Program-made: the position numbers and the translations under genes
Source: Minisyncoccota bacterium
Lineage (GTDB): Bacteria > Patescibacteriota > Minisyncoccia > Phycocordibacterales > CAJBRS01
DNA length: 64,000 nt
Assembly: GCA_035652395.1 (NCBI GenBank)
Contig: DASRDX010000009.1
Coordinates: forward strand, 62,642-126,641
Direction: 5' to 3'
Shown: positions 13,961 through 50,414 of the stretch, piece after piece
Position numbering within the stretch: the stretch's first letter is position 1
How the letters are laid out: each line of letters starts with the position of its first letter
Notes under the pieces: model-generated
Seen by the model: the letters and a program-made list of their open reading frames with translations, nothing else
Database searches by the model: none
What the model was told of the DNA's origin: nothing

Positions 13961-14000
13961 ATGCGGCATTTTATTTAAATAAAATGAGCGTCGACGACGC

Positions 14001-14561
14001 TCAGGGAATTCTGATAAAAACCGGTCCAATGCGAAACTTTTCTTTTGGCAATGGTTCGGAATGGAAGTCTTCCTTTTTAGTGAGCCAATAAATACCATTG
14101 GGTTCGAGGATGTACTCGCCAGATTTTTCCGGTTTGAAGAAGACTGTCAAACAGAAGGTGATCTCTTCTCCTGCCCGAATTTTCATCAGACCACTTTCAG
14201 AATTTGGAGAAGTGATGTTCCACGCGCTTTCCGCCTCGCCCGTTTCAATTAATTTCCCCTTGGGATCTCGTATGGAGTACGAAAGACCTTTCAAGCTCGA
14301 CTGAAGAAGCCCCGCTGATCTTGTAGCTCCTACCGGTACCCAGACATCTTCCGGCATCGGTCCGAGTTGATAATTTAAGGTAAAGATAACTGCTTCGAAA
14401 TTACTGTCTACTACTTTCCCGGTCCGGTTCCAAATCCAGCTCATTAGTTTGATTGGAAGAGGTTCTGATACCGAAGCCGTGGACAAGGGTGTAGGAGAAG
14501 GGAAAATCAAAGGGCTGGCTAAGAAGAGGGCCAAAGCAATCTGCAGATTGAGTTTGTTCAT
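14001..14561 (-). CDS. Hypothetical secreted protein (N-terminal signal peptide)
   Basis: MNKLNLQIALALFLASPLIFPS signal-like N-terminus. A bidirectional terminator hairpin GAGCGTCGACGACGCTC lies at 13986-14003. Confidence 0.5.
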   Translation of the reverse strand: MNKLNLQIALALFLASPLIFPSPTPLSTASVSEPLPIKLMSWIWNRTGKVVDSNFEAVIFTLNYQLGPMPEDVWVPVGATRSAGLLQSSLKGLSYSIRDPKGKLIETGEAESAWNITSPNSESGLMKIRAGEEITFCLTVFFKPEKSGEYILEPNGIYWLTKKEDFHSEPLPKEKFRIGPVFIRIP

Positions 14562-14617
14562 TTCTAATTCTATGTAACCACCTTTTAAAAGGAAGTCAAA
14601 TACGAGATAATCAGATC

Positions 14618-15214
14618 ATGAACATTCGAGAGCTTTTCAAGATCCTCTTGCCGCAAACCCACCTCAATCGGAGTCTTCGCATTTTGATAATTGTTAACAC
14701 TTTCATGGTTTTTGTTATTGGTCTATTTGCGCCGTTTTACGCCATTTTTGTGGTGGGGCTAGGGGGCAATATTGCTTTCGCTGGCTTTTCTTGGGCCTTG
14801 TTTTCAATAGTTTGTGGTATTTTGATTTTGCTTTTTACGCGATGGGAGCTCCAGATTAAGGAACAAGAATTGCTTCTTGCGCTCGGCTATCTTTTAAGAG
14901 GATTGGTTTTTCTTAGTTACGCTTTCATGGGAAGCATGTTTCAACTGATCATTACCCAAGTGCTTTGGGGAATAGCAGCCGCTATCGGCACTCCAGCTTT
15001 TGATGCCGTTTATCAAACTCACACTACCCAAGCCGAATCGATCGTACAGTGGGGCGGTTGGGAAGGCATTGCCGCCATAGCTACCGGTTTAGCCGCTTTG
15101 ATTGGAGGCATTCTTATTCAATCTTTCGGATATGCCTCCATCTTTTTATCAATGTCCATCATTTCTTTTGCTCTTGGAATTTATATTTGGCGCTTACCGA
15201 GGGAAATACTGTAG
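14618..15214 (+). CDS. Membrane protein, half-size MFS-like (about 6 TM helices)
   Basis: 198 aa, hydrophobic with MFS-like loop LPQTHLNRSLR, but only half the usual transporter length. Confidence 0.45.
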   Translation: MNIRELFKILLPQTHLNRSLRILIIVNTFMVFVIGLFAPFYAIFVVGLGGNIAFAGFSWALFSIVCGILILLFTRWELQIKEQELLLALGYLLRGLVFLSYAFMGSMFQLIITQVLWGIAAAIGTPAFDAVYQTHTTQAESIVQWGGWEGIAAIATGLAALIGGILIQSFGYASIFLSMSIISFALGIYIWRLPREIL

Positions 15215-15263
15215 AAGTCTTAATATTGACAGAATTCCCGCTTTGGCAGAATATCAGCACTAG

Positions 15264-15920
15264 ATGAACCTTAAACAGGAATCCTTTTTGCTTCGAAAAG
15301 TTAAGACGGATGAAGAGGGGAAAGAAGGCATTCTGAAACTCTCTTGGTTAACTAATGCGGTCCGACGAACGGTCATTGTAGAGATGGGAGAAATGACGGG
15401 CTGTGGATCCATTATTAATCGTTCTGTTATTATCTCGGGTCTTTTCGGCGATCAAATTAAAAGTGCCGTTTCCTTCCAACTTTATCTTCGGCCTATTGTT
15501 TCCCAGTTCTATCCCGAAGAGGTTAGTTCGCCGGTAGAAGTGAACTGGGGTTTTGACGAAAATCTAAAGCTTTGTCTGGTCGTCCCCGGACACCGTCCAA
15601 TCGCTCCAAGTTTTTTGGAATGTCGTCCTGATGTTGGCGAGTATCTGCTTTTGGTTAGCGGTTGCAGAGAGCCTTTGGTGCTCGAACTCTCCGAAATTAT
15701 CAAAAGTTCTTACTCCAGTTTCGCTAAAAAACTTTCATTGATGCACATAGATGTAGAATCGGGAATCCCAGCAAGCCTTCTTTATCGTATGAATGGTGAC
15801 GTAGCGGGCATAGCCATTACCTCCACCAGTGATGATAAAGTTCTGGCCATACCGGCTTATGAGGTCCTGAATTTTTATCATCACCATGCCGGTTTCTTGC
15901 GAGAAACTAAAACGGTTTGA
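15264..15920 (+). CDS. Hypothetical protein, possibly a degenerate trypsin-like fold
   Basis: Segments GCGSIINRSVIISGLF and RMNGDVAGIAITSTSDDKVLAIPAYEV resemble the positions of S1 protease motifs (GSGFVI..., GNSGGP...GINT...FAIP) but lack catalytic His and Ser. This is weak. Confidence 0.45.
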   Translation: MNLKQESFLLRKVKTDEEGKEGILKLSWLTNAVRRTVIVEMGEMTGCGSIINRSVIISGLFGDQIKSAVSFQLYLRPIVSQFYPEEVSSPVEVNWGFDENLKLCLVVPGHRPIAPSFLECRPDVGEYLLLVSGCREPLVLELSEIIKSSYSSFAKKLSLMHIDVESGIPASLLYRMNGDVAGIAITSTSDDKVLAIPAYEVLNFYHHHAGFLRETKTV

Positions 15921-16006
15921 TTCTTGGCGGCGCTTTTAAAAGATTGCGCCGCTTTTTATTTATATTTGCTAAATTCTTGATCTCTATTAATATCGACAGA
16001 AGGTCT

Positions 16007-16279
16007 ATGATCCGTCTTGAAGATCTTTCTTTTGAAGAAAAGCAATGTTTAGCTTACCTTGCTTACGTTAGAACCCATGGTCACCAAATGCTTCGAAATG
16101 TTTTTTACAAATCCAGCGATGAAAAAATCATTCTTCGCATTGATTTGGAACTTGATGTTTCCTCGCGTTTACTTTCCATACCCGAGTGGGTTAGACAAAA
16201 TTTGCCTGACCCAAAGGAGCACTGGGTCAAAGAATACCTACTTAACCGCTTTGCTCCCGATTCTCCAGCGGCGCCTTAA
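16007..16279 (+). CDS. Hypothetical small protein (the six-frame ORF starts at 15917; the internal ATG 16007 is preceded by GAAGG)
   Basis: ORF with a plausible RBS/ATG at 16007 and a terminator hairpin AGCGTTCGCCGTAGGCGAACGCT at 16306-16328. Confidence 0.35.
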   Translation: MIRLEDLSFEEKQCLAYLAYVRTHGHQMLRNVFYKSSDEKIILRIDLELDVSSRLLSIPEWVRQNLPDPKEHWVKEYLLNRFAPDSPAAP

Positions 16280-16331
16280 ATCCGGCGCCGTCTTTTATTT
16301 AAAAAGCGTTCGCCGTAGGCGAACGCTGAAA

Positions 16332-16928
16332 TCAATCTCCACCGAGGCGGAGCCGGCGATTGATGGTATAACCTCCCACCTCCAAGGCGTCAAGATTATA
16401 ACCAGATTCTTTATCACAATCGTCTCGCAGAATCGGTTTTGCTGTTTCGTAAGGAGTATGAAGCCAGATTTTATGTTTACGACTCAATTCTTCCAGCTCC
16501 TCGGCGAATTTCTTTGCTCGATTTAAGAAACTGTTTTCGGGCCAACATAATTCTGGCCACGCGAGTTCAGCTATTTCTGTTGCGGAGGCAAGGTTAAACT
16601 CAAGAAGCTCATTTTCCGTCAGCTTGGGCAGCCGCAGTAAATCTTCCTCTTTTATTTTTCTTAAAACCGGTTCTTGAATATTGAACGGTGTTCCGATTTC
16701 GGATCCACTTACCCAGCCGCGGGCGTCAAAATAAGAGACGGCACCTTCCGGCTGAAGTAATGCATGCCGAATAACTTCATTTACCATTAGGCCAACAATT
16801 GGCCAGCCCAAAGCTCGGTGAAGGGCGATGGCAAAGATGTAACACGCGCCGTCGAGATAAGCTGTCAAGATACGCTGATGAGTTCTCTCCTTCTCTCTGC
16901 CTGTCAAAGGTTGAAACTGAATAGACAT
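16332..16928 (-). CDS. Hypothetical protein
   Basis: 198-aa ORF convergent with the previous gene, sharing a bidirectional terminator. No motif recognised. Confidence 0.5.
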   Translation of the reverse strand: MSIQFQPLTGREKERTHQRILTAYLDGACYIFAIALHRALGWPIVGLMVNEVIRHALLQPEGAVSYFDARGWVSGSEIGTPFNIQEPVLRKIKEEDLLRLPKLTENELLEFNLASATEIAELAWPELCWPENSFLNRAKKFAEELEELSRKHKIWLHTPYETAKPILRDDCDKESGYNLDALEVGGYTINRRLRLGGD

Positions 16929-17032
16929 ATAGATCTTTCTAAAATTAAATTAGCTTTAAATTAGGAAAAGTCAATCCTGGATTTGATATTGAAAAATCCT
17001 CCAATAAATGCCAATCTTAATTCAGAAAACAA

Positions 17033-17458
17033 ATGAACCTTACGAATATTCTGGAAAAACCTCACGCTATTGGTGAGCGCTGTAAAGGCTGCGAGGAAGC
17101 CGATTATCGACATCCCACCGCGACCTGTTCGGACTTTCAATCTAAGATGTTGGCCATTGTCAGAGAAGCGGATCAACATCTTCAATTTGAAGTGGCTGTT
17201 CTCAATTACATCTCAGAAAACCTCGAAACTTTTTCTGAAGCCGAGATTTCTCCAAAGGGCCTGTTGGCTCACTTCAATTTTAAAATCCCTCTTACGCAAG
17301 AGTTCAGCTTAATTGAATACGGGAAAGAGATCCGGGAATGGGTAAAAACGCGACTGCCCACAAAATCCAGCAGCACTCTCGGTAAGTTCTTAATAAAGAA
17401 GGGTCTCATCCAGCCTCACGAGCTTTACTTCAACATTCATCCACCGCATAGCGCTTAG
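17033..17458 (+). CDS. Hypothetical protein (CxxC...C near N-terminus)
   Basis: 141-aa ORF containing CKGCEEADYRHPTATC. Confidence 0.4.
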   Translation: MNLTNILEKPHAIGERCKGCEEADYRHPTATCSDFQSKMLAIVREADQHLQFEVAVLNYISENLETFSEAEISPKGLLAHFNFKIPLTQEFSLIEYGKEIREWVKTRLPTKSSSTLGKFLIKKGLIQPHELYFNIHPPHSA

Positions 17459-17626
17459 CCTTCGTTCCGAAACTCTATAGTTGAAGAGGTGAAGGTCAGA
17501 GAGATCAGTCGTGCTCGTCGGCGGCAAAAGCGCCTAATCCTTCGAAGTCGCAAACCAAGAGCCGCTGTGCAGGTGTCACCTTCACAGCGATTTTTATTAA
17601 ATCAGAAGACTTGTTAGAATTAATAT

Positions 17627-18130
17627 ATGGCCGAGGAAGAGCAATATTTAAAGGAATTTACTAAACCAGCGGAAGAGCTGACTGAGACAGATCTTTTTAA
17701 TAAAAGATTTGTGGAAGCAGCTGATCATCTTTATATTGCTAGACCGAGAGTAGATACATTTCAGGAGTTTGAGCAGGGCATTGTGAATCTCAATAATCTG
17801 ATTGAGAAATATGAAAATGAACTCTTGCCTCAGATTCAGAAAGTAAAGAATCCCATAATCAGCGACCATTTTTTACAATCTCTAGTGGACGCCGATAGTT
17901 TCTTGCAGATCCTTCTGGCGGAAGCCATGATTCCACTAGAGACTCTGGATAGACTTGATGAAGAAGATTTGAAATCTTTAAGAAATCTCCATGATTATGT
18001 TTCAAATAGAATAATTCCTCGGGCTCGGGCGGAAACTATTAATACGTTAGCCGAGAACACTCGAGCACTTTTAGATAAGATAGAATTAGCATTAGCTCTG
18101 GAAGAGGGTAGTCCTGAGGTGAAAGAATAG
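17627..18130 (+). CDS. Hypothetical acidic protein
   Basis: 167-aa ORF rich in Glu/Asp/Leu. Confidence 0.45.
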   Translation: MAEEEQYLKEFTKPAEELTETDLFNKRFVEAADHLYIARPRVDTFQEFEQGIVNLNNLIEKYENELLPQIQKVKNPIISDHFLQSLVDADSFLQILLAEAMIPLETLDRLDEEDLKSLRNLHDYVSNRIIPRARAETINTLAENTRALLDKIELALALEEGSPEVKE

Positions 18131-18186
18131 AATGCAGCGAAGCTGCCGTTTTAAAGTTTCTTGACAACTTGCTCCTTTGAAGTAAG

Positions 18187-18582
18187 TTGGAGGCAGAAAT
18201 GAATAATTGGGGAACCATTTTCCAAGAAACTCACCTGGTCATTACAGACAATGCGACATCGAAACTTTTGGCAGATTGGAGGAAGCTTTATGGAGTATTA
18301 CACCCTGATCCAGTCCTCCAGATTAAAAGATTTCTAAGAAATCCAGCTCTGGAGAAACTCCCTGCTCGCTATCAAGATCGGCGGCAGGCTAGTAACGGTC
18401 AGGTAAAAGCTGACTATTATCGTTTCGGTGAATGGCGCCTGGTGATCATCAAAGACGAAGAGGCTAAGACTTCGACCGTTGTCACCGTTGAGGCAGTACC
18501 CGATATCTCGCATCTAAGAAGGCGGAGACGACGGTGGAGAAGAAGGCCGAAGGGGAAGAGGCCGCGCCGTAGGCGGGGCTAG
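18187..18582 (+). CDS. Hypothetical protein with RelE/ParE-like core pattern and a C-terminal poly-Arg tail
   Basis: ADYYRFGEWRLVIIKDEEAKTSTVVTVEAV resembles the GDYRIIYRIDDE..TVYIL(R)IGHR pattern of RelE/ParE. The tail RRRRRRWRRRPKGKRPRRRRG is unusual. Confidence 0.4.
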   Translation: MEAEMNNWGTIFQETHLVITDNATSKLLADWRKLYGVLHPDPVLQIKRFLRNPALEKLPARYQDRRQASNGQVKADYYRFGEWRLVIIKDEEAKTSTVVTVEAVPDISHLRRRRRRWRRRPKGKRPRRRRG

Positions 18583-18584
18583 AG

Positions 18585-18650
18585 AACCTCGTCGTGAGAC
18601 GAGGATTTTATTTGAGAGGTTCGGCGCCTTGCGCGCCGAACCTCTGCTAT
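18585..18650 (+). terminator. Tandem intrinsic terminators
   Basis: CCTCGTCGTGAGACGAGG+TTTTATTT, then GAGGTTCGGCGCCTTGCGCGCCGAACCTC. Confidence 0.65.
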
Positions 18651-18686
18651 AATTAATAGATATTATTACTAGCTAATTTTAGACTT

Positions 18687-19106
18687 ATGCCTATTAATTA
18701 TTTAGCGGTGTTGGTCTGTGGAATTGCAGCCATGATTCTTGGTTATCTTTGGTACGGTCCATTTTTTGGTAAAACTTGGATGCGGGAGATGGGAGTTTCT
18801 GTGGAGACGATGTCTCCGGAGCAGACGAAAGGAATGGGTAAGAGATACTTTTTGATGTTTATTGGTGCCCTAGTGATGGCTTGGGTTTTGGCTCATTCTA
18901 TTATTACGGCAGCTCTCTATACCGGCCTTACTGGAGTTGGCTTGGGGTTATTAATCGGCTTCATGAGCTGGTTAGGTTTTGTTGCTCCCGTCACTCTCGG
19001 TTCCGTACTTTGGGAAAATAAAAGTTGGAAACTCTGGTGGATCAACAACAGCTATTACATTGTTGATCTCGTTATCATGGGCATAATTTTAGCCCTCTGG
19101 GTGTAG
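18687..19106 (+). CDS. DUF1761-like small membrane protein
   Basis: LAVLVCGIAAMILGYLWYGPFFGKTWMREMG and four TM helices, recalled as the DUF1761 pattern. Confidence 0.55.
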   Translation: MPINYLAVLVCGIAAMILGYLWYGPFFGKTWMREMGVSVETMSPEQTKGMGKRYFLMFIGALVMAWVLAHSIITAALYTGLTGVGLGLLIGFMSWLGFVAPVTLGSVLWENKSWKLWWINNSYYIVDLVIMGIILALWV

Positions 19107-19475
19107 ATGAAACCTAAAACTGTAGATGAATACATTAGGATGGCCGCGCCGAAGGCGCGGCCACATCTCCGAACTCTCCGTCAGATTATCAAAAAAGAGG
19201 TACCGGAAGTAAAAGAGAAAATCGGCTATAGCATGCCATATTACAATTACCTCGGGATGTTTACCGGCTTCGCTGCTTTCCCAAATCATATTGGGCTTTA
19301 TACGTTGAACATGCATATTAAAGGAGATCTGAAAAAACGAGCGGACAAATACGTTACCAGCAAAGGGACAATGCAGTTTTCTTATGACAAAGCTCTCCCC
19401 GCAAATTTAATTAGAAAATTGGTTAGAGAAAAAGGCCGAAGAATGGAGAAAAAGAAAAAAAATTATGAAAAATAA
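19107..19475 (+). CDS. DUF1801 (YdhG-like) domain protein
   Basis: MKPKTVDEYIRMAAPKARPHLRTLRQIIKKEVPEVKEKIGYSMPYY resembles DUF1801. Start is adjacent to the stop of the previous gene. Confidence 0.55.
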   Translation: MKPKTVDEYIRMAAPKARPHLRTLRQIIKKEVPEVKEKIGYSMPYYNYLGMFTGFAAFPNHIGLYTLNMHIKGDLKKRADKYVTSKGTMQFSYDKALPANLIRKLVREKGRRMEKKKKNYEK

Positions 19476-19971
19476 ATATTTAATTACCCTCTTTATAATT
19501 TGCGTGGTAATTCTCGTAATTGTCTTCAAACTGCCCGCTCCTAAATCTACCACTTCCTCCTCATCTACAAACAATACACCGGTTTCTTCTGATCTGGCAG
19601 ATGTTGGCAGTGCAGTAACCGATTTTGGCAGTAAGTTGAAAAATGTTTCGCTCCTTGCTCCAACTTCTACTTTAAAGGCGGACATAGCTAGATATTACGG
19701 ACCTTACATAACCGTTGAGCTTCTCGCAGAGTGGCAAAACAATCCATCGCTCGCTCCTGGTCGACTAACCTCTAGTCCTTGGCCAGATCACATTGATATT
19801 CTTTCTATTAATCAAATAGACTCCACCCATTATCAAGTGCAAGGTGAAATCGTGGAAATGACCAGCCAAGAAGTAGTCGCCGGCGGTGATTCTGGTAGGG
19901 AAGAAGTAAAAATCACTCTTACTAAAGTAAAGAACAAATGGCTAATTAGTCAGTTTGGGTCAGGAAAATAA
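19465..19971 (+). CDS. Hypothetical membrane-anchored protein
   Basis: N-terminal TM helix. Followed by terminator GGCGCCGAAGGCGCC at 19977-19995. Confidence 0.5.
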   Translation: MKNKYLITLFIICVVILVIVFKLPAPKSTTSSSSTNNTPVSSDLADVGSAVTDFGSKLKNVSLLAPTSTLKADIARYYGPYITVELLAEWQNNPSLAPGRLTSSPWPDHIDILSINQIDSTHYQVQGEIVEMTSQEVVAGGDSGREEVKITLTKVKNKWLISQFGSGK

Positions 19972-20038
19972 AGAAAGGCGCCGAAGGCGCCTTTCTCATG
20001 CTATGATAAAAATCTTAATAATTAATTCTATTTAAATT

Positions 20039-32552: not shown

Positions 32553-32962
32553 TTTCTCTTTGGATCTGTAAGCCGAATTCTGTGCGAGATAGGCGAAGTC
32601 GCTTTTCTCGTGACAATTATTTATCTGGGCCAGCTGTTACCAGCCGGCTCTAGCGGCACCCCCAGCCGTAGTTTTGAGATTTTAAAACAAAACTACGGTT
32701 GGGTACGGCCTTGCACAGGGGTAAGGATTTTGCCGTTTCACTCCCGAAATTACTTTCGGGCTTCGCCCTACAGACCATTCGCCTGTAGAGCGGCGGTTTT
32801 CTTTCGAAAACCGCCGTTTCTGTTCGCACCTCTTGGATTGCTCCAGACGGGCGTTACCCGCCACCTTTTCAAATTAATGAACTGTGTTCGGACTTTCCTC
32901 CCAATCATTTCTGACCGAGCAATTGTCCAATTCAAAGAGGCTAGAAGTATAATATAGGCCGT
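32553..32962 (-). ncRNA. rnpB: RNase P RNA, bacterial type A
   Basis: The minus strand carries GGGAGGAAAGUCCG (P4 5' strand, rc of 32889-32902), GGUAACGCC, GUGCGAACAGAAACGGCGG, and a 3' region CUGGCCCAGAUAAAUAAUUGUCACGA...CACAGAAUUCGGCUUACAG matching E. coli M1 RNA CUGGCCUAGAUGAAUGACUGUCCACGACAGAACCCGGCUUA. The region contains many nested hairpins. Exact ends are uncertain. Confidence 0.8.
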
Positions 32963-39587: not shown

Positions 39588-39980
39588 ATGCGGGAATTTC
39601 GAGAACGTAAAAAAATTAAGAAGCGCATCTATTCCAAGACAGTGGTAATAATTTTAGCTATTTTACTTGCTCTTTTAATTGAAGGGACCTGGAAAGTTTT
39701 CCAAAAAGAACGGGAGAGTGCGGCCAACTTGTGGCGAGTTAATAACCAGCTTTCGGAACTTCAGGCTCGAAATACCGCCCTGTCAGATGATGTGGCGGCC
39801 CTCCAGACTGATCAGGGGATTGAGAGTGAGATTCGCAGCAAATATCAGGTGGCCAAGTCAGGGGAGCAGGTCATAGTCATTGTGGACAAGGATAATACAG
39901 CTAGTTCAACTCCTCCCGGTAATTTCTTAGTCCGCTGGTGGGATAATTTTCTTAGTCTTTTTAAAAGAAAGACTAAATAG
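39588..39980 (+). CDS. ftsB: Septum formation initiator family protein (FtsB/DivIC-like)
   Basis: Single N-terminal TM then coiled coil NQLSELQARNTALSDDVAALQTDQGIESEIRSKY. Confidence 0.6.
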   Translation: MREFRERKKIKKRIYSKTVVIILAILLALLIEGTWKVFQKERESAANLWRVNNQLSELQARNTALSDDVAALQTDQGIESEIRSKYQVAKSGEQVIVIVDKDNTASSTPPGNFLVRWWDNFLSLFKRKTK

Positions 39981-40024
39981 CGAGATTAGTTCAATGGTAG
40001 AACACATGCTTCCCACCCCGACAG
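39980..40024 (+). pseudogene. Truncated 5' half of a tRNA-Gly-like gene (acceptor, D-arm, anticodon 5' stem and loop only)
   Basis: GCGAGATTAGTTCAATGGTAGAACACATGCTTCCCAC, then a non-tRNA sequence. Parallel to the intact tRNA-Gly 8 nt downstream. Confidence 0.6.
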
Positions 40025-40031
40025 TAAAATT

Positions 40032-40102
40032 GCGAGTGTCGTATAGTGGTAATACGTCTGCTTCCCAAGCAGATAACGCGAGTTCGATTCTCGCCACTCG
40101 CA
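40032..40102 (+). tRNA. tRNA-Gly (anticodon CCC)
   Basis: GCGAGTGTCGTATAGTGGTAATACGTCTGCTTCCCAAGCAGATAACGCGAGTTCGATTCTCGCCACTCGCA, a cloverleaf with T-loop TTCGATT. Confidence 0.85.
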
Positions 40103-40139
40103 CTAATGTTAGATTCGCAATTTACCACAGGATAAGAGC

Positions 40140-40315
40140 ATGAAATTGGTTCAATAATTCTATGGCAATAAGCCTAACACTCGAATATTCGGACTATGAG
40201 AAATGTTTTTCCCGTATCTCGCACTTTACAGAGTTCGATAATTCTATGGCACCGAGCCCCAATATACGAATATTCGGACGATGAGAGATATTTTTCTCGC
40301 CACTCGCACTAATTA
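40140..40315 (+). repeat. Two degenerate tRNA-derived repeat units (about 87 nt each) containing TAATTCTATGGCA and CGAATATTCGGAC; unit 2 ends with a 19-nt copy of the tRNA-Gly 3' end
   Basis: 40151-40195 and 40231-40280 share GTTCGATAATTCTATGGCA...CGAATATTCGGAC. 40296-40314 TCTCGCCACTCGCACTAAT is identical to 40090-40108. Confidence 0.6.
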
Positions 40316-40369
40316 CGATTTTAATTTTTATTTAAGGTTTTTTCATGCTCGATAGTTTAGAATCGGCGC

Positions 40370-43383: not shown

Positions 43384-43456
43384 GCCGAGGTAGCTCAGTT
43401 GGTAGAGCATTTGCCTGAAGAGCAAGGGGTCGCCGGTTCGAGCCCGGCCCTCGGCA
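43384..43456 (+). tRNA. tRNA-Phe (anticodon GAA)
   Basis: GCCGAGGTAGCTCAGTTGGTAGAGCATTTGCCTGAAGAGCAAGGGGTCGCCGGTTCGAGCCCGGCCCTCGGCA. Confidence 0.9.
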
Positions 43457-43500
43457 CTAAAATAATAACCGCCAATTCTAATTGGCGGTTATTATTTTAG
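43457..43500. terminator. 21-bp perfect palindrome after tRNA-Phe (bidirectional terminator-like)
   Basis: CTAAAATAATAACCGCCAATT CT AATTGGCGGTTATTATTTTAG. Confidence 0.6.
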
Positions 43501-43607
43501 TGCCGTAAAGTCCGTATAGCTTAAGCAATTATGTGGCAAGAAGCTATTAACCTCCAAAATTCAAACAATGAGAAGTATTTTCCGGCCCTCGACTTTGTAT
43601 AATTGAT

Positions 43608-49366: not shown

Positions 49367-49439
49367 GTGCGCGGTGAGGGATTCGAACCCCCGGCATCAA
49401 CAACGTCAATGTTGCGCTCTACCAACTGAGCTAACCGCG
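49367..49439 (-). tRNA. tRNA-Val (anticodon GAC)
   Basis: rc: GCGCGGTTAGCTCAGTTGGTAGAGCGCAACATTGACGTTGTTGATGCCGGGGGTTCGAATCCCTCACCGCGCA. Confidence 0.85.
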
Positions 49440-49524
49440 CCTTTTATGAAATTTACCATTTTTCGGCGATAGAGGAAAAAGTTTTACCACAGTTTGCCAC
49501 ATACCTTGGAGTATCGGGCCTTCT

Positions 49525-49598
49525 TGCCATAGAATTACTCTTCACCTCTAACATCAACCACGTCAATGTTGCGCTCTACCAATTGAGCTAATCGCCCT
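49525..49598 (-). pseudogene. Truncated tRNA-Val 5' half followed by TAATTCTATGGCA-containing sequence
   Basis: rc of 49549-49598 is GGGCGATTAGCTCAATTGGTAGAGCGCAACATTGACGTGGTTGATG, then TTAGAGGTGAAGAGTAATTCTATGGCAAGAAGGCC. There is no T-arm. Confidence 0.6.
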
Positions 49599-49643: not shown

Positions 49644-50414
49644 TCAATGAATCTTTTTGTAATGTTTCAAGTAAGCCACGATGATGAAGCTGATTATAAC
49701 CATCAAAAACCAAGAGGTGATTTTGTTGGTAGAAACGACATTCCATACATGAACTTGATCGGGATATTGCCAGGCGCCCCAAAAAGTTGAAAGATTTTCG
49801 GCAACCCAAAGAAAGAAGGCGATGAGACAGAAGCCTAAAGCAAGCGGCATGGAGCGACGTCTTTCCGTAACTGTAAAGAAGACTTGAGTGCGGGCAAATA
49901 GAAGAAATACTGCCGGAATAAGTAGAATACGAAGATCCGGAATAAAGTGATTGGTGAAAAAGTTAAGGTAAATTAAAACTCCCAGCACTAACATGGCCGG
50001 ATAATTTGGTGGCTCTTCCAGTTCAAGTTTCAGTATTCTCCAAGCTTGAGCAATGTAGCTTCCTACAGAGGCGTACATAAAACCGGCAAAGAGCGGCACG
50101 GTAGCGATTTTAAAGATAGCCGCTTCGGGATAACTCCATGAGCCGATAGCTGGATTAGTCTTGAAAACTTCCAAAAGAGTTCCAATAAGGTGAAAGAGAA
50201 AAATAGTTTTGATCTCATCCCATGTCTCGATTTTTGTCAGAAATAGAATAATCTGCAAAAGAACCGCCGATAAAAAGAGAAAATCGTATCTCGCCAAACC
50301 AAAAAGGGGAATGTGATTTGAAAGAAATAAAAGAGCAAAAAATGAGCCCGCAAAAATGCAGGCACGGGCTTCTTTTATGATGAAGATCATGAATTCTCGA
50401 GCAAGTTTTTTCAT
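49644..50414 (-). CDS. DUF817 family membrane protein
   Basis: 256 aa, polytopic. IKEARACIFAGSFFALLFLS...FHLIGTLLEVFKT resembles DUF817. Confidence 0.6.
   Translation of the reverse strand: MKKLAREFMIFIIKEARACIFAGSFFALLFLSNHIPLFGLARYDFLFLSAVLLQIILFLTKIETWDEIKTIFLFHLIGTLLEVFKTNPAIGSWSYPEAAIFKIATVPLFAGFMYASVGSYIAQAWRILKLELEEPPNYPAMLVLGVLIYLNFFTNHFIPDLRILLIPAVFLLFARTQVFFTVTERRRSMPLALGFCLIAFFLWVAENLSTFWGAWQYPDQVHVWNVVSTNKITSWFLMVIISFIIVAYLKHYKKIH

What the first reader, a model, noticed from the sequence alone, without database searches (positions are those of the whole stretch)
39980..40320. tRNA-Gly locus littered with tRNA fragments and a recurring TAATTCTATGGCA element
A truncated 5' half of a tRNA-Gly-like gene (39980-40024) sits 8 nt upstream of the intact tRNA-Gly(CCC). 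Downstream are two degenerate ~87-nt units that each contain GTTCGATAATTCTATGGCA and CGAATATTCGGAC. In unit 2 the tRNA T-arm sequence GAGTTCGAT is interrupted by 56 nt and then resumes with TTCTCGCCACTCGCACTAAT, a 19-nt exact copy of the tRNA-Gly 3' end.

The same 13-mer, TAATTCTATGGCA, is found again at the tRNA-Val fragment at 49525-49537. That makes three occurrences, all at tRNA-fragment junctions, which is unlikely by chance. This looks like scars of repeated site-specific integration and excision at tRNA genes, or a small tRNA-targeting non-autonomous element. A type IV pilin-like gene starts immediately after it.
Basis: seen in the sequence. Interest (0 to 1): 0.7.

Follow-up and report, generated by a model that had tools for sequence, protein, structure and literature searches.

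The report
Mini insertion element in tRNA T-loops
A 55-62 bp selfish-looking DNA element, so far seen only in this Paceibacteria genome and one close relative, sits in the T-loop of spare or dead tRNA gene copies next to working tRNA genes. It marks unusually fast turnover of tRNA loci rather than a new cellular function.

Summary
TAATTCTATGGCA occurs exactly three times (none expected by chance), always inside a tRNA T-arm.

The 13-mer is the 5' end of one repeat family, which I call TLI (T-loop insert). It is 55-62 bp in the window and up to about 66 bp in the relative. It has a conserved 20-nt head and a T-run tail.

- **Copies:** The closest relative (GCA_038215155.1) holds four more, at Val, Ser, Phe and an island edge.
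- **Position:** every copy splits a T-loop, leaving T-stem 3' and acceptor 3' sequence downstream.
- **Val "fragment":** this is a full-length tRNA-Val with TLI in its T-loop.
- **Gly locus:** the ancestral tRNA-Gly(CCC) is split at position 37/38 by 121 bp that carry the working tRNA-Gly. Its T-loop holds TLI. A 28-nt copy of the working gene's 3' end holds another TLI.

Species-representative and metagenome scans found the family nowhere else. It has no conserved RNA fold, no BHB motif, no inverted ends and no target duplication, and the window has no recombinase.

Best reading: a lineage-restricted, non-autonomous, T-loop-targeting insertion element that survives only in redundant tRNA copies. 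The enzyme that moves it is unknown.

The parts
39980..40015 (+). 5' part (positions 1-37) of the ancestral tRNA-Gly(CCC), here called A. It has acceptor GCGAGAT, a D arm, anticodon stem CATGC and loop TTCCCA. It abuts the DivIC-like stop codon, as in relatives.
   Evidence: D2, I1. The ortholog in L121 is GCGAGAT...ATCTCGCA directly after DivIC, and L124 has the same type.
40016..40136 (+). A 121-bp insertion at tRNA position 37/38 of A. It consists of a 16-nt left flank, the intact tRNA-Gly(CCC) called B, and a 33-nt right flank.
   Evidence: One search gives the coordinates and sequence. Removing this segment and TLI-1 in silico yields a tRNA-Gly(CCC) call by ARAGORN at default thresholds. 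Rfam finds no group I intron or other family here.
40032..40103 (+). The intact, presumably functional tRNA-Gly(CCC), called B. Its acceptor is GCGAGTG/CACTCGC. It is not the ortholog of the relatives' gene at this locus.
   Evidence: ARAGORN and Rfam at 70.8 bits.
40137..40154 (+). Continuation of A: A38, anticodon-stem 3' strand GCATG, variable region, and a decayed T-stem 5' strand and T-loop (TGGTTCAA).
   Evidence: Compare L121 ...GCATGAAACGCGAGTTCGATT....
40155..40210 (+). TLI copy 1 (56 nt, short subfamily), inserted in the T-loop of A.
   Evidence: (nhmmer E = 1e-13).
40211..40223 (+). T-stem 3' strand (CCCGT), acceptor 3' strand (ATCTCGC) and discriminator A of A. The following CTTTA flank resembles the flank after L123's tRNA-Gly.
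   Evidence: (I1: 13 nt, 85% complementary to 39974-39986).
40231..40238 (+). B-type T-arm 5' fragment GAGTTCGA, the start of a partial second copy of B's 3' end.
   Evidence: It is identical to 40080-40087 in B.
40239..40293 (+). TLI copy 2 (55 nt, short subfamily, 81% identical to copy 1). It is a clean insertion between T-loop positions 58 and 59 of the B fragment, with the junction ambiguous by one T.
   Evidence: (E = 7e-13).
40294..40313 (+). Exact 20-nt copy of B's 3' end plus 5 nt of its downstream flank (TTCTCGCCACTCGCACTAAT).
   Evidence: D4, 100% identity with 40088-40107.
49463..49597 (-). Full-length tRNA-Val(GAC)-like pseudogene, called alpha*. Stems are acceptor GGGCGAT/ATCGCCG and T stem AGAGG/CCTCT. 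Its T-loop holds TLI copy 3. It has disruptive changes: a 1-72 G-G mismatch, a 31-39 A-G mismatch, and T-loop TGAAGAG.
   Evidence: Rfam gives a sub-threshold partial tRNA hit of 16.6 bits at 49529-49592. ARAGORN calls tRNA-Val only after in-silico excision and only in pseudogene mode.
49476..49537 (-). TLI copy 3 (62 nt, long subfamily).
   Evidence: (E = 9e-17).
49367..49440 (-). Intact tRNA-Val(GAC), called beta. Its acceptor is GCGCGGT. It abuts the TsaD start, as in L124, so this is the ancestral position.
43526..43581 (+). TLI copy 4, degenerate (head CAATTATGTGGCA), short subfamily. It lies downstream of tRNA-Phe and its hairpin. It is positionally orthologous to a copy in L121.
   Evidence: (E = 1e-11).
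43582..43593 (+). tRNA-Phe 3' fragment CCGGCCCTCGAC, following TLI copy 4. Compare the tRNA-Phe 3' end CCGGCCCTCGGCA.
43384..43457 (+). Intact tRNA-Phe(GAA), upstream of TLI copy 4.

Best explanation
TLI is a lineage-restricted, non-autonomous insertion element of 55-62 bp in the window (up to about 66 bp in the relative) that targets the 3' side of the tRNA T-loop (positions 58-60).

**Anatomy.** It has a conserved 20-nt head, YAATTCTRTGGY-A-nnRAG-CC, which includes a 3-bp mini-hairpin GGC/GCC. The body is variable apart from a CTCSAA block, and the tail is a T-run.

**Proposed mechanism.** A recombinase or transposase encoded elsewhere, still unidentified, recognises the head and tail. It inserts the element without inverted ends and without a target duplication. 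Insertion destroys the T-arm, so copies persist only in tRNA genes or fragments that are redundant. Redundancy arises when a second isoacceptor gene lies beside the hit copy, or when the fragment is an att-type 3' duplicate.

**History of the Gly locus.**
1. The ancestral tRNA-Gly(CCC) A was split at 37/38 by 121 bp that brought in a foreign, working tRNA-Gly(CCC) B.
2. A then became a pseudogene and acquired TLI.
3. A 28-nt duplicate of B's 3' end also acquired TLI.

**What is shown.** The family membership, the T-loop position, the differences in presence and absence between sister genomes, the decay of the host tRNAs, and the narrow distribution.

**What is inferred.** Mobility itself, action in trans, the survivorship explanation, and the order of events.
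For: - **One family.** Eight copies align end to end (A1). An HMM built from them finds exactly these eight at E <= 1e-11 in 150 kb, and the next hit is at E = 0.05 (re-finds the orphan copy and nothing new in L185/L186).
- **Always in a T-arm.** Every copy is followed by T-stem 3' plus acceptor 3' sequence of a tRNA: Gly-A, Gly-B, Val-alpha, Val-beta, Ser, Phe twice, and one unknown. Each is preceded by T-loop 5' sequence. In B the insert is a clean 55-nt interruption of an otherwise exact 28-nt copy.
- **Association with tRNA genes.** Seven of the eight copies lie within about 130 nt of an intact isoacceptor gene.
- **Presence and absence differ between sisters.** The Gly locus is clean in L121, L123 and L124. 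The Ser locus is clean in the window but filled in L121. The Phe copy is absent in L123.
- **Excision restores a tRNA.** In-silico removal restores ARAGORN tRNA calls.
- **The hosts are pseudogenes.** They carry pair-breaking substitutions and deletions.
- **The ends are conserved more than the body.** Column identity is 93% for the head and the tail, against 43-52% for the most variable body blocks (75% and 88% in two others). Two subfamilies occur in both genomes. The positionally orthologous Phe copies have a decayed head. So the host does not preserve the head; the exact 13-mers mark younger copies.
- **Narrow distribution.** Among 185,579 species genomes only GCA_038215155.1 has family hits. 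There are none in 241 million metagenome records or in viral contigs.
Against: - No mobilising enzyme was found. No integrase, transposase or recombinase appears among 40 window ORFs of 140 aa or more.
- No full-length autonomous copy was seen.
- There are only eight copies in two genomes, and no polymorphic empty and filled allele of the same gene within one population. Mobility is inferred, not observed.
- The two Val copies share an odd T-loop 5' part (TGAGAA and TGAAGAG instead of TTCGAA) while sitting in different tRNA backbones. A simple independent-insertion model does not predict this.
- The insert-bearing tRNA pieces are usually a different allele from the adjacent intact gene. Five of the eight start at the T-stem/T-loop, as integrase attR fragments do. 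This hints at a link with integrative elements that I could not resolve.
- The left hairpin is only 3-4 bp, which is weak for a known HUH-type end.
Confidence: 0.55

Rival explanations
1. TLI is not an independent element. It is the leftover arm (attP-derived integrase binding region) of a family of tRNA-integrating plasmids or prophages. On this reading the units are attR-type scars left after the element bodies were deleted.
For: - Five of the eight copies are tRNA 3' fragments that begin at the T-stem/T-loop, the classical T-loop att sublocation (my knowledge: Williams 2002).
- B and its partial copy form a direct repeat of 8 + 20 nt that extends 5 nt past the tRNA end.
- The A 3' half begins exactly at the anticodon loop, the other classical sublocation.
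- The orphan copy in L126 lies at the edge of a block encoding a Recombinase-domain protein, an HTH_17 excisionase-like protein and unknown proteins.
- The tRNA pieces are foreign alleles.
Against: - TLI lies between the T-loop 5' part and the T-stem 3' part, which are contiguous in the tRNA. An att core would be uninterrupted.
- Two copies sit inside complete tRNA-Val genes with matching stems on both sides.
- All copies have the same unit length, which independent deletions would not give.
- The widespread island family next to the orphan copy has no TLI in another genome (L186).
- No recombinase gene lies near the window copies.
Confidence: 0.2
2. The copies arose only by local duplication and gene conversion among tRNA pseudogenes. 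On this reading there is one ancient insertion that spread by recombination between conserved T-arms, and no transposition activity.
For: - Copies 1 and 2 are adjacent and 81% identical.
- T-arms give short shared flanks. A and B had identical 17-nt T-arms.
- The Phe copies are positionally orthologous and old.
Against: - The copies lie at four loci in the window spread over 9.6 kb, and at four loci on two contigs in the relative, in tRNAs of different specificity.
- Flanking homology is only 5-10 nt, too short for RecA-type conversion (my knowledge).
- Each subfamily occurs in both genomes at non-orthologous sites.
Confidence: 0.12
3. TLI is a functional RNA feature. It could be a T-loop intron removed from pre-tRNA, or an expansion that turns the tRNA into a structured small RNA.
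For: - The position is precise and inside a tRNA.
- Removing it in silico restores a cloverleaf.
- Patescibacteria are already known to carry many tRNA introns, specifically group I introns in anticodon loops (PMC13011429).
- A full-length insert-bearing tRNA-Val precedes the intact tRNA-Val in both genomes.
Against: - The only conserved pairing is a 3-bp hairpin (RNAalifold). Folding z-scores range from -1.8 to +0.6.
- No consistent bulge-helix-bulge motif exists.
- No Rfam family hits, including group I introns and ribozymes.
- The host tRNAs carry pair-breaking mutations and most lack a 5' half.
- An intact isoacceptor gene is always present.
- The head decays in the old Phe copies.
Confidence: 0.05

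Closest known systems
Non-autonomous miniature insertion elements of bacteria (MITEs; IS200/IS605-derived palindrome-associated elements; Rickettsia palindromic elements)
   Same: - Short (under 100 bp), non-coding and multi-copy.
- Lineage-specific, with ends conserved more than the interior.
- Subfamilies exist.
- Insertion into genes, including RNA genes.
- Like HUH-type elements, there are no inverted ends and no target duplication, and insertion occurs next to a short preferred motif (TTCRA in four of eight copies).
   Different: - It is much shorter than typical MITEs.
- It lacks the terminal inverted repeats of DDE-type MITEs, and it lacks strong subterminal hairpins.
- To my knowledge, exclusive targeting of the tRNA T-loop has not been described for bacterial elements.
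- No parent IS is known.
tRNA-gene att sites of integrative elements (anticodon-loop and T-loop sublocations; Williams 2002, from my knowledge)
   Same: - tRNA 3' fragments lie beside intact tRNA genes, with break points at the anticodon loop and the T-loop.
- There is a direct repeat of the tRNA 3' end that runs past the gene end.
- The alleles are foreign.
- One copy sits at an island edge.
   Different: - The repeated core is itself interrupted by the 55-62 bp insert.
- No integrase and no island lie between the repeats.
- Complete tRNA genes carry the insert.
- At the Gly locus the incoming DNA brought a whole tRNA gene, not a restoring 3' half.
Archaeal non-canonical tRNA introns (bulge-helix-bulge type, including T-loop positions) and group I introns in Patescibacteria tRNA genes (PMC13011429)
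   Same: An intervening sequence sits at a fixed position inside a tRNA gene. The second interruption, at 37/38, is at the canonical intron site.
   Different: - No BHB motif.
- No group I core, and the size is too small.
- The host tRNAs are decayed.
- The organism is bacterial.
- The known Patescibacteria introns are in anticodon loops, not T-loops.

Membership tests
Classical MITE (DDE transposase-derived) | Terminal inverted repeats | tested here: not met
   The best match between the first 16 nt and the reverse complement of the last 16 nt is 7-9 of 16 positions, and it is not consistent across copies.
Classical MITE (DDE transposase-derived) | Target-site duplication of fixed length | tested here: not met
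   Comparing B with its insert-bearing copy shows a clean 55-nt insertion with at most one ambiguous T.
Classical MITE (DDE transposase-derived) | Related autonomous IS with the same ends in the genome | not testable with these tools
   Only 64 kb of this genome and about 40 kb of the relative could be read. No transposase is present in the window.
IS200/IS605-type (HUH, single-strand) miniature derivative | No inverted ends and no target duplication | tested here: met
IS200/IS605-type (HUH, single-strand) miniature derivative | Subterminal hairpins at both ends | tested here: inconclusive
   Only a 3-4 bp hairpin (GGC-loop-GCC) near the left end is conserved. The short subfamily has a CGAATATTCG palindrome near the right half, but the long subfamily does not.
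IS200/IS605-type (HUH, single-strand) miniature derivative | Insertion 3' of a fixed 4-5 nt target | tested here: inconclusive
   The left flank is TTCGA(A), TTCAA or GTCGA in five copies, but GAGAA, AAGAG, TTAAG and TTTAG in the others.
Integrase att scar at a tRNA gene | Direct repeat of an uninterrupted tRNA 3' segment flanking an island | tested here: not met
   The repeat exists (8 + 20 nt), but the downstream copy is interrupted by TLI, and only 123 bp of non-island sequence lie between the repeats.
Integrase att scar at a tRNA gene | Integrase or recombinase gene next to the site | tested here: not met
   None is present in the window. The one exception is the orphan copy in L126, which lies 2.6 kb from a Recombinase-domain ORF.
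Archaeal-type BHB tRNA intron | Bulge-helix-bulge motif at both junctions | tested here: not met
   A relaxed BHB search found hits in 2 of 8 copies, at non-homologous positions.
Archaeal-type BHB tRNA intron | Excision yields a functional tRNA | tested here: inconclusive
   ARAGORN calls tRNA-Gly after double excision at default thresholds. It calls tRNA-Val only in pseudogene mode. Stems carry mismatches.
Group I intron in tRNA (Patescibacteria) | Group I catalytic core, and location in the anticodon loop | tested here: not met
   No Intron_gpI hit at gathering threshold or at E-value up to 10. TLI is 55-62 nt and lies in the T-loop. The 121-nt insert at 37/38 is mostly a tRNA gene.

The most novel reading that the evidence does not exclude
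TLI may be the disabling part of a tRNA-gene replacement system. In this reading, incoming DNA that carries its own tRNA gene (B at the Gly locus, alpha at the relative's Val locus) spreads because a T-loop-specific insertion activity knocks out the resident isoacceptor gene. The cell then depends on the incoming copy, which would be a form of addiction built on tRNA genes.

A weaker variant is that TLI is a T-loop intron removed by an unknown bacterial pathway.
Probability: 0.07. Interest if true: 0.8.

Novelty: new variant of a known kind. Interest (0 to 1): 0.45.

Why it matters
If TLI is truly mobile, it would be a bacterial element whose only known target is the most conserved loop of tRNA. 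It shows that even about 1-Mb Patescibacteria genomes, with single-copy tRNA genes, tolerate repeated tRNA-gene replacement and pseudogene formation.

It also has a practical consequence. tRNA finders miss these interrupted copies, and annotators may mistake the working gene for the ancestral one.

The nested arrangement, a working tRNA inside the anticodon loop of its dead predecessor, is a clear and datable record of tRNA gene turnover. The element's conserved 20-nt head is a handle for finding the enzyme that recognises T-arms in DNA.

Tried and rejected
- **Viral contig scan with the 13-mer.** More than 120 hits, at a level I judged consistent with chance. The multi-hit contigs I opened were repeat-protein genes, so this was uninformative.
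- **Species-genome and metagenome scans with the 20-nt head pattern.** Only the sister MAG matched. All other hits lack tRNA context.
- **Further viral scans.** I searched for the long-subfamily pattern and for the foreign tRNA alleles B and alpha. Nothing was found, so no phage donor was identified.
- **Exact look-up of two window proteins.** Neither is on record.
- **RNA structure.** No conserved fold, so the structured-RNA idea was rejected.
- **Rfam at permissive thresholds.** No ribozyme, intron or other family. A hammerhead-like CUGAUGAG resemblance in copy 2 is not conserved across copies.
- **BHB intron and terminal-inverted-repeat tests.** Both negative.
- **Promoter and terminator scan.** Nothing above shuffle expectation. 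TLI is not an obvious terminator.
- **The island next to the orphan copy.** It belongs to a very widespread Patescibacteria element family with serine recombinases. A second member has no TLI, and the sister MAG's contig ends inside the island, so its other boundary could not be seen. The link was left open.
- **Serine-recombinase "attP-only" mini-element and Campbell-type models.** I could not make the junction sequences fit either one.
- **Order of events at the Val locus.** I could not reconstruct one history that explains why the insert-bearing and intact tRNA-Val types are swapped between the two genomes.
Full report
**What is in the sequence**

The 13-mer TAATTCTATGGCA is present exactly three times, at 40155(+), 40239(+) and 49525-49537(-). 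None of 100 dinucleotide-preserving shuffles produced a single match. ARAGORN and Rfam report seven normal tRNA genes in the window. They include tRNA-Gly(CCC) at 40032-40103 and tRNA-Val(GAC) at 49367-49440 on the minus strand. The repeat finder confirms three things:
- the two downstream units, with 84-85 nt spacing;
- the exact 20-nt copy of the tRNA-Gly 3' end (40088-40107 = 40294-40313);
- a 41-nt similarity between the upstream half-tRNA and the intact gene.

**Re-reading the Val site**

On the minus strand, 49597-49463 is not a fragment. It is a complete tRNA-Val-like gene. It has acceptor GGGCGAT/ATCGCCG, a D arm, anticodon loop TTGACGT and T stem AGAGG/CCTCT. Its T-loop is replaced by 62 nt that begin TAATTCTATGGCA and end in TTTTT. 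It lies 22 nt upstream of the intact tRNA-Val. Rfam gives its 5' part a sub-threshold tRNA score of 16.6 bits.

**Re-reading the Gly site**

- The upstream half (39980-40015) has acceptor GCGAGAT and anticodon stem CATGC.
- Its partners are downstream: GCATG at 40138-40142 and ATCTCGCA at 40216-40223, the 3' end of unit 1 (I1).
- So one tRNA-Gly(CCC), which I call A, is interrupted twice. The first interruption is 121 bp at position 37/38, and it contains the intact tRNA-Gly(CCC) B. The second is unit 1's 56-nt insert in the T-loop.
- Deleting both in silico gives a tRNA-Gly(CCC) that ARAGORN calls at default thresholds. It has perfect acceptor, D and anticodon stems and a decayed T stem.
- Unit 2 is GAGTTCGA, then 55 nt, then TTCTCGCCACTCGCACTAAT. 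That is a 28-nt copy of B's 3' end cleanly split between T-loop positions 58 and 59.

**Organism and relatives**

LepA places the window in Patescibacteria/Paceibacteria. The closest genome has 87% LepA identity: GCA_038215155.1, loci L121 and L126. Others are at 83% (L123) and 75-76% (L124, L125). Gene order around both loci is conserved.
- In L121, L123 and L124 the Gly locus holds one clean tRNA-Gly. L121 and L124 carry the A type, with L121's directly after the DivIC-like gene. A is therefore ancestral and B is a newcomer.
- In L124 and in the window, a GCGCGGT-type tRNA-Val (beta) abuts the TsaD start, so this is the ancestral state.
- In L121 the beta-type gene carries a T-loop insert, and an intact GGGCGAT-type gene (alpha) follows 7 nt later. 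The window has the reverse: alpha carries the insert and beta is intact.

**One repeat family**

A fuzzy search and then an HMM found further copies.
- In L121 there is one after tRNA-Ser(CGA) (TGGTTCGAA | insert | CCTCCCGCCTCCGCA) and one after tRNA-Phe.
- An orphan copy lies in L126.
- A fourth, degenerate window copy lies at 43526-43581, after tRNA-Phe and its hairpin. It is followed by a tRNA-Phe 3' fragment.

All eight copies align over their full length (A1). nhmmer finds exactly these eight at E <= 1e-11 across the window and five relatives' loci, and the next hit is at E = 0.05.

Column identity is highest at the two ends:

| Region | Column identity |
|---|---|
| Head (first 12 nt) | 93% |
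| CTCSAA block | 88% |
| T-run tail | 93% |
| Most variable body blocks | 43-52% |

There are two subfamilies, and both occur in both genomes. The short one comprises Gly copies 1 and 2 and both Phe copies. The long one comprises both Val copies, the Ser copy and the orphan copy.

In every copy the insert is preceded by T-loop 5' sequence and followed by T-stem 3' plus acceptor 3' sequence of some tRNA. I call the family TLI, for T-loop insert.

**Evidence for gain and loss**
- Gly is filled in the window and empty in three relatives.
- Ser is filled in L121 and empty in the window.
- Phe is filled in the window and L121 at corresponding positions, but empty in L123.
- The Phe copies share derived head changes (C at position 1, G at position 8). 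They are the most decayed, as expected for old neutral copies.
- The other copies keep a perfect 12-13-nt head. The host therefore does not preserve the head. Its perfection elsewhere marks younger copies derived from active sources.

**What TLI is not**
- **Not a structured RNA.** RNAalifold finds only a 3-bp hairpin, and single-sequence z-scores are unremarkable.
- **Not a known RNA family.** Rfam gives nothing but tRNAs and RNase P, even at E up to 10.
- **Not an archaeal-type intron.** There is no consistent bulge-helix-bulge motif.
- **Not a group I intron.** It is far too small. The described Patescibacteria tRNA introns are group I introns in the anticodon loop (PMC13011429).
- **Not a classical MITE.** It has no terminal inverted repeats and no target duplication.
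- **Not hosted by functional tRNAs.** Alpha* has 1-72 and 31-39 mismatches, beta* has lost 3 nt around the variable region, and A has a 2-nt shorter T-stem strand.

**Distribution**

The 20-nt head pattern matched only GCA_038215155.1 among 185,579 species-representative genomes. The other 22 hits lack any tRNA context. It matched nothing convincing among 241 million metagenome records or in viral contigs. The family is confined, as far as these collections show, to one narrow Paceibacteria lineage.

**Search for the mobilising enzyme**

Pfam scans of 40 window ORFs of 140 aa or more found only housekeeping functions. The orphan copy in L126 lies at the edge of an island-like block. That block holds a Recombinase-domain protein, HARE-HTH, an HTH_17 excisionase-like protein and unknown proteins. 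The island's 366-aa protein has 931 homologues at E <= 1e-5, and the best 120 are 76-100% identical. They come from several named Patescibacteria groups. In another genome it lies among restriction-modification genes and large serine recombinases. That second island has no TLI and no tRNA within 21 kb. The sister MAG's contig ends inside the island, so the link is unproven.

**Interpretation**

The most economical reading is a small, non-autonomous, site-specific insertion element that targets the 3' side of the T-loop.
- Because the T-arm is essential, insertions can persist only in redundant copies.
- Those copies exist because tRNA loci in this lineage turn over. Foreign alleles arrive (B, alpha), old genes are split (A at the anticodon loop), and 3' fragments are duplicated (B's 28 nt; the Ser and Phe fragments).
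- These are the classical break points of integrative elements, at the anticodon loop and the T-loop.

The main rival is that TLI is itself an attP arm remnant. That fits the attR-like fragments and the island-edge copy. It does not fit the interruption of otherwise contiguous T-loops, the full-length insert-bearing tRNA-Val genes, or the uniform unit size.

**Unexplained**
- Why the insert-bearing and intact tRNA-Val types are swapped between the two genomes.
- Why both Val copies share a TGAGAA-like T-loop remnant.
- Why five of the eight host fragments begin precisely at the T-stem/T-loop.
- How a whole tRNA gene came to lie in the anticodon loop of its predecessor.

These leave room for a coupled replacement-and-inactivation mechanism, to which I give a low probability.

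**Verdict**

This is a new variant of a known kind: a miniature insertion element with an unusual target. It is of moderate interest, and its mechanism is inferred rather than shown.

Noticed in passing
window 43452-43503; also L121 about 15095-15050 (minus), L124 14268-14350, and L121 about 20500-20420 (minus): Long, near-perfect hairpins (21 bp in the window) whose 5' arm begins inside the 3' end of the tRNA gene. They occur at tRNA-Phe in three genomes and at tRNA-Val alpha in L121, where the hairpin is an inverted copy of the tRNA 3' end. They may be terminators or processing signals that reuse the acceptor 3' strand.
   Followed up: partly
window 43384-43593 versus L121 14957-15158: The block made of tRNA-Phe, hairpin, TLI and Phe 3' fragment is inverted between the two sister genomes relative to the flanking methyltransferase gene and 84-aa ORF.
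   Followed up: partly
L126 1-3951 / L185 8758-12648; L186 8435-15052: An island module ([342-357 aa][about 50 aa][366-372 aa][166-174-aa Recombinase-domain protein][HTH_17]). Its 366-aa protein has 931 homologues at E <= 1e-5, and the best 120 are 76-100% identical. They come from several named Patescibacteria groups (Magasanikbacteria, Nomurabacteria). In L186 the module lies next to restriction-modification genes and two large serine recombinases. This is a very widespread, unusually conserved mobile element of the phylum.
   Followed up: partly
window 49644-50414 (minus): A 256-aa membrane-protein gene lies between tRNA-Glu and the tRNA-Val pair in the window. It is absent from the same interval in L121, which has about 490 bp with no called gene instead.
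   Followed up: no
window 14000-20000: A run of eight ORFs of 140-220 aa (seven with no Pfam match, one with only a sub-threshold MFS_1 hit), in an otherwise housekeeping window. This may be a variable or lineage-specific region.
   Followed up: no
window 32553-32938 (minus): A bacterial type A RNase P RNA (142.7 bits) sits between the ribonucleotide reductase small subunit gene and a TPR protein gene.
   Followed up: no
L121 12515-12820 and L123 12518-12877: In the relatives, the interval between tRNA-Gly and the next conserved gene holds different small ORFs (101 aa on the plus strand in L121, 119 aa on the minus strand in L123). The DNA just downstream of tRNA-Gly is therefore variable in all three genomes.
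   Followed up: no
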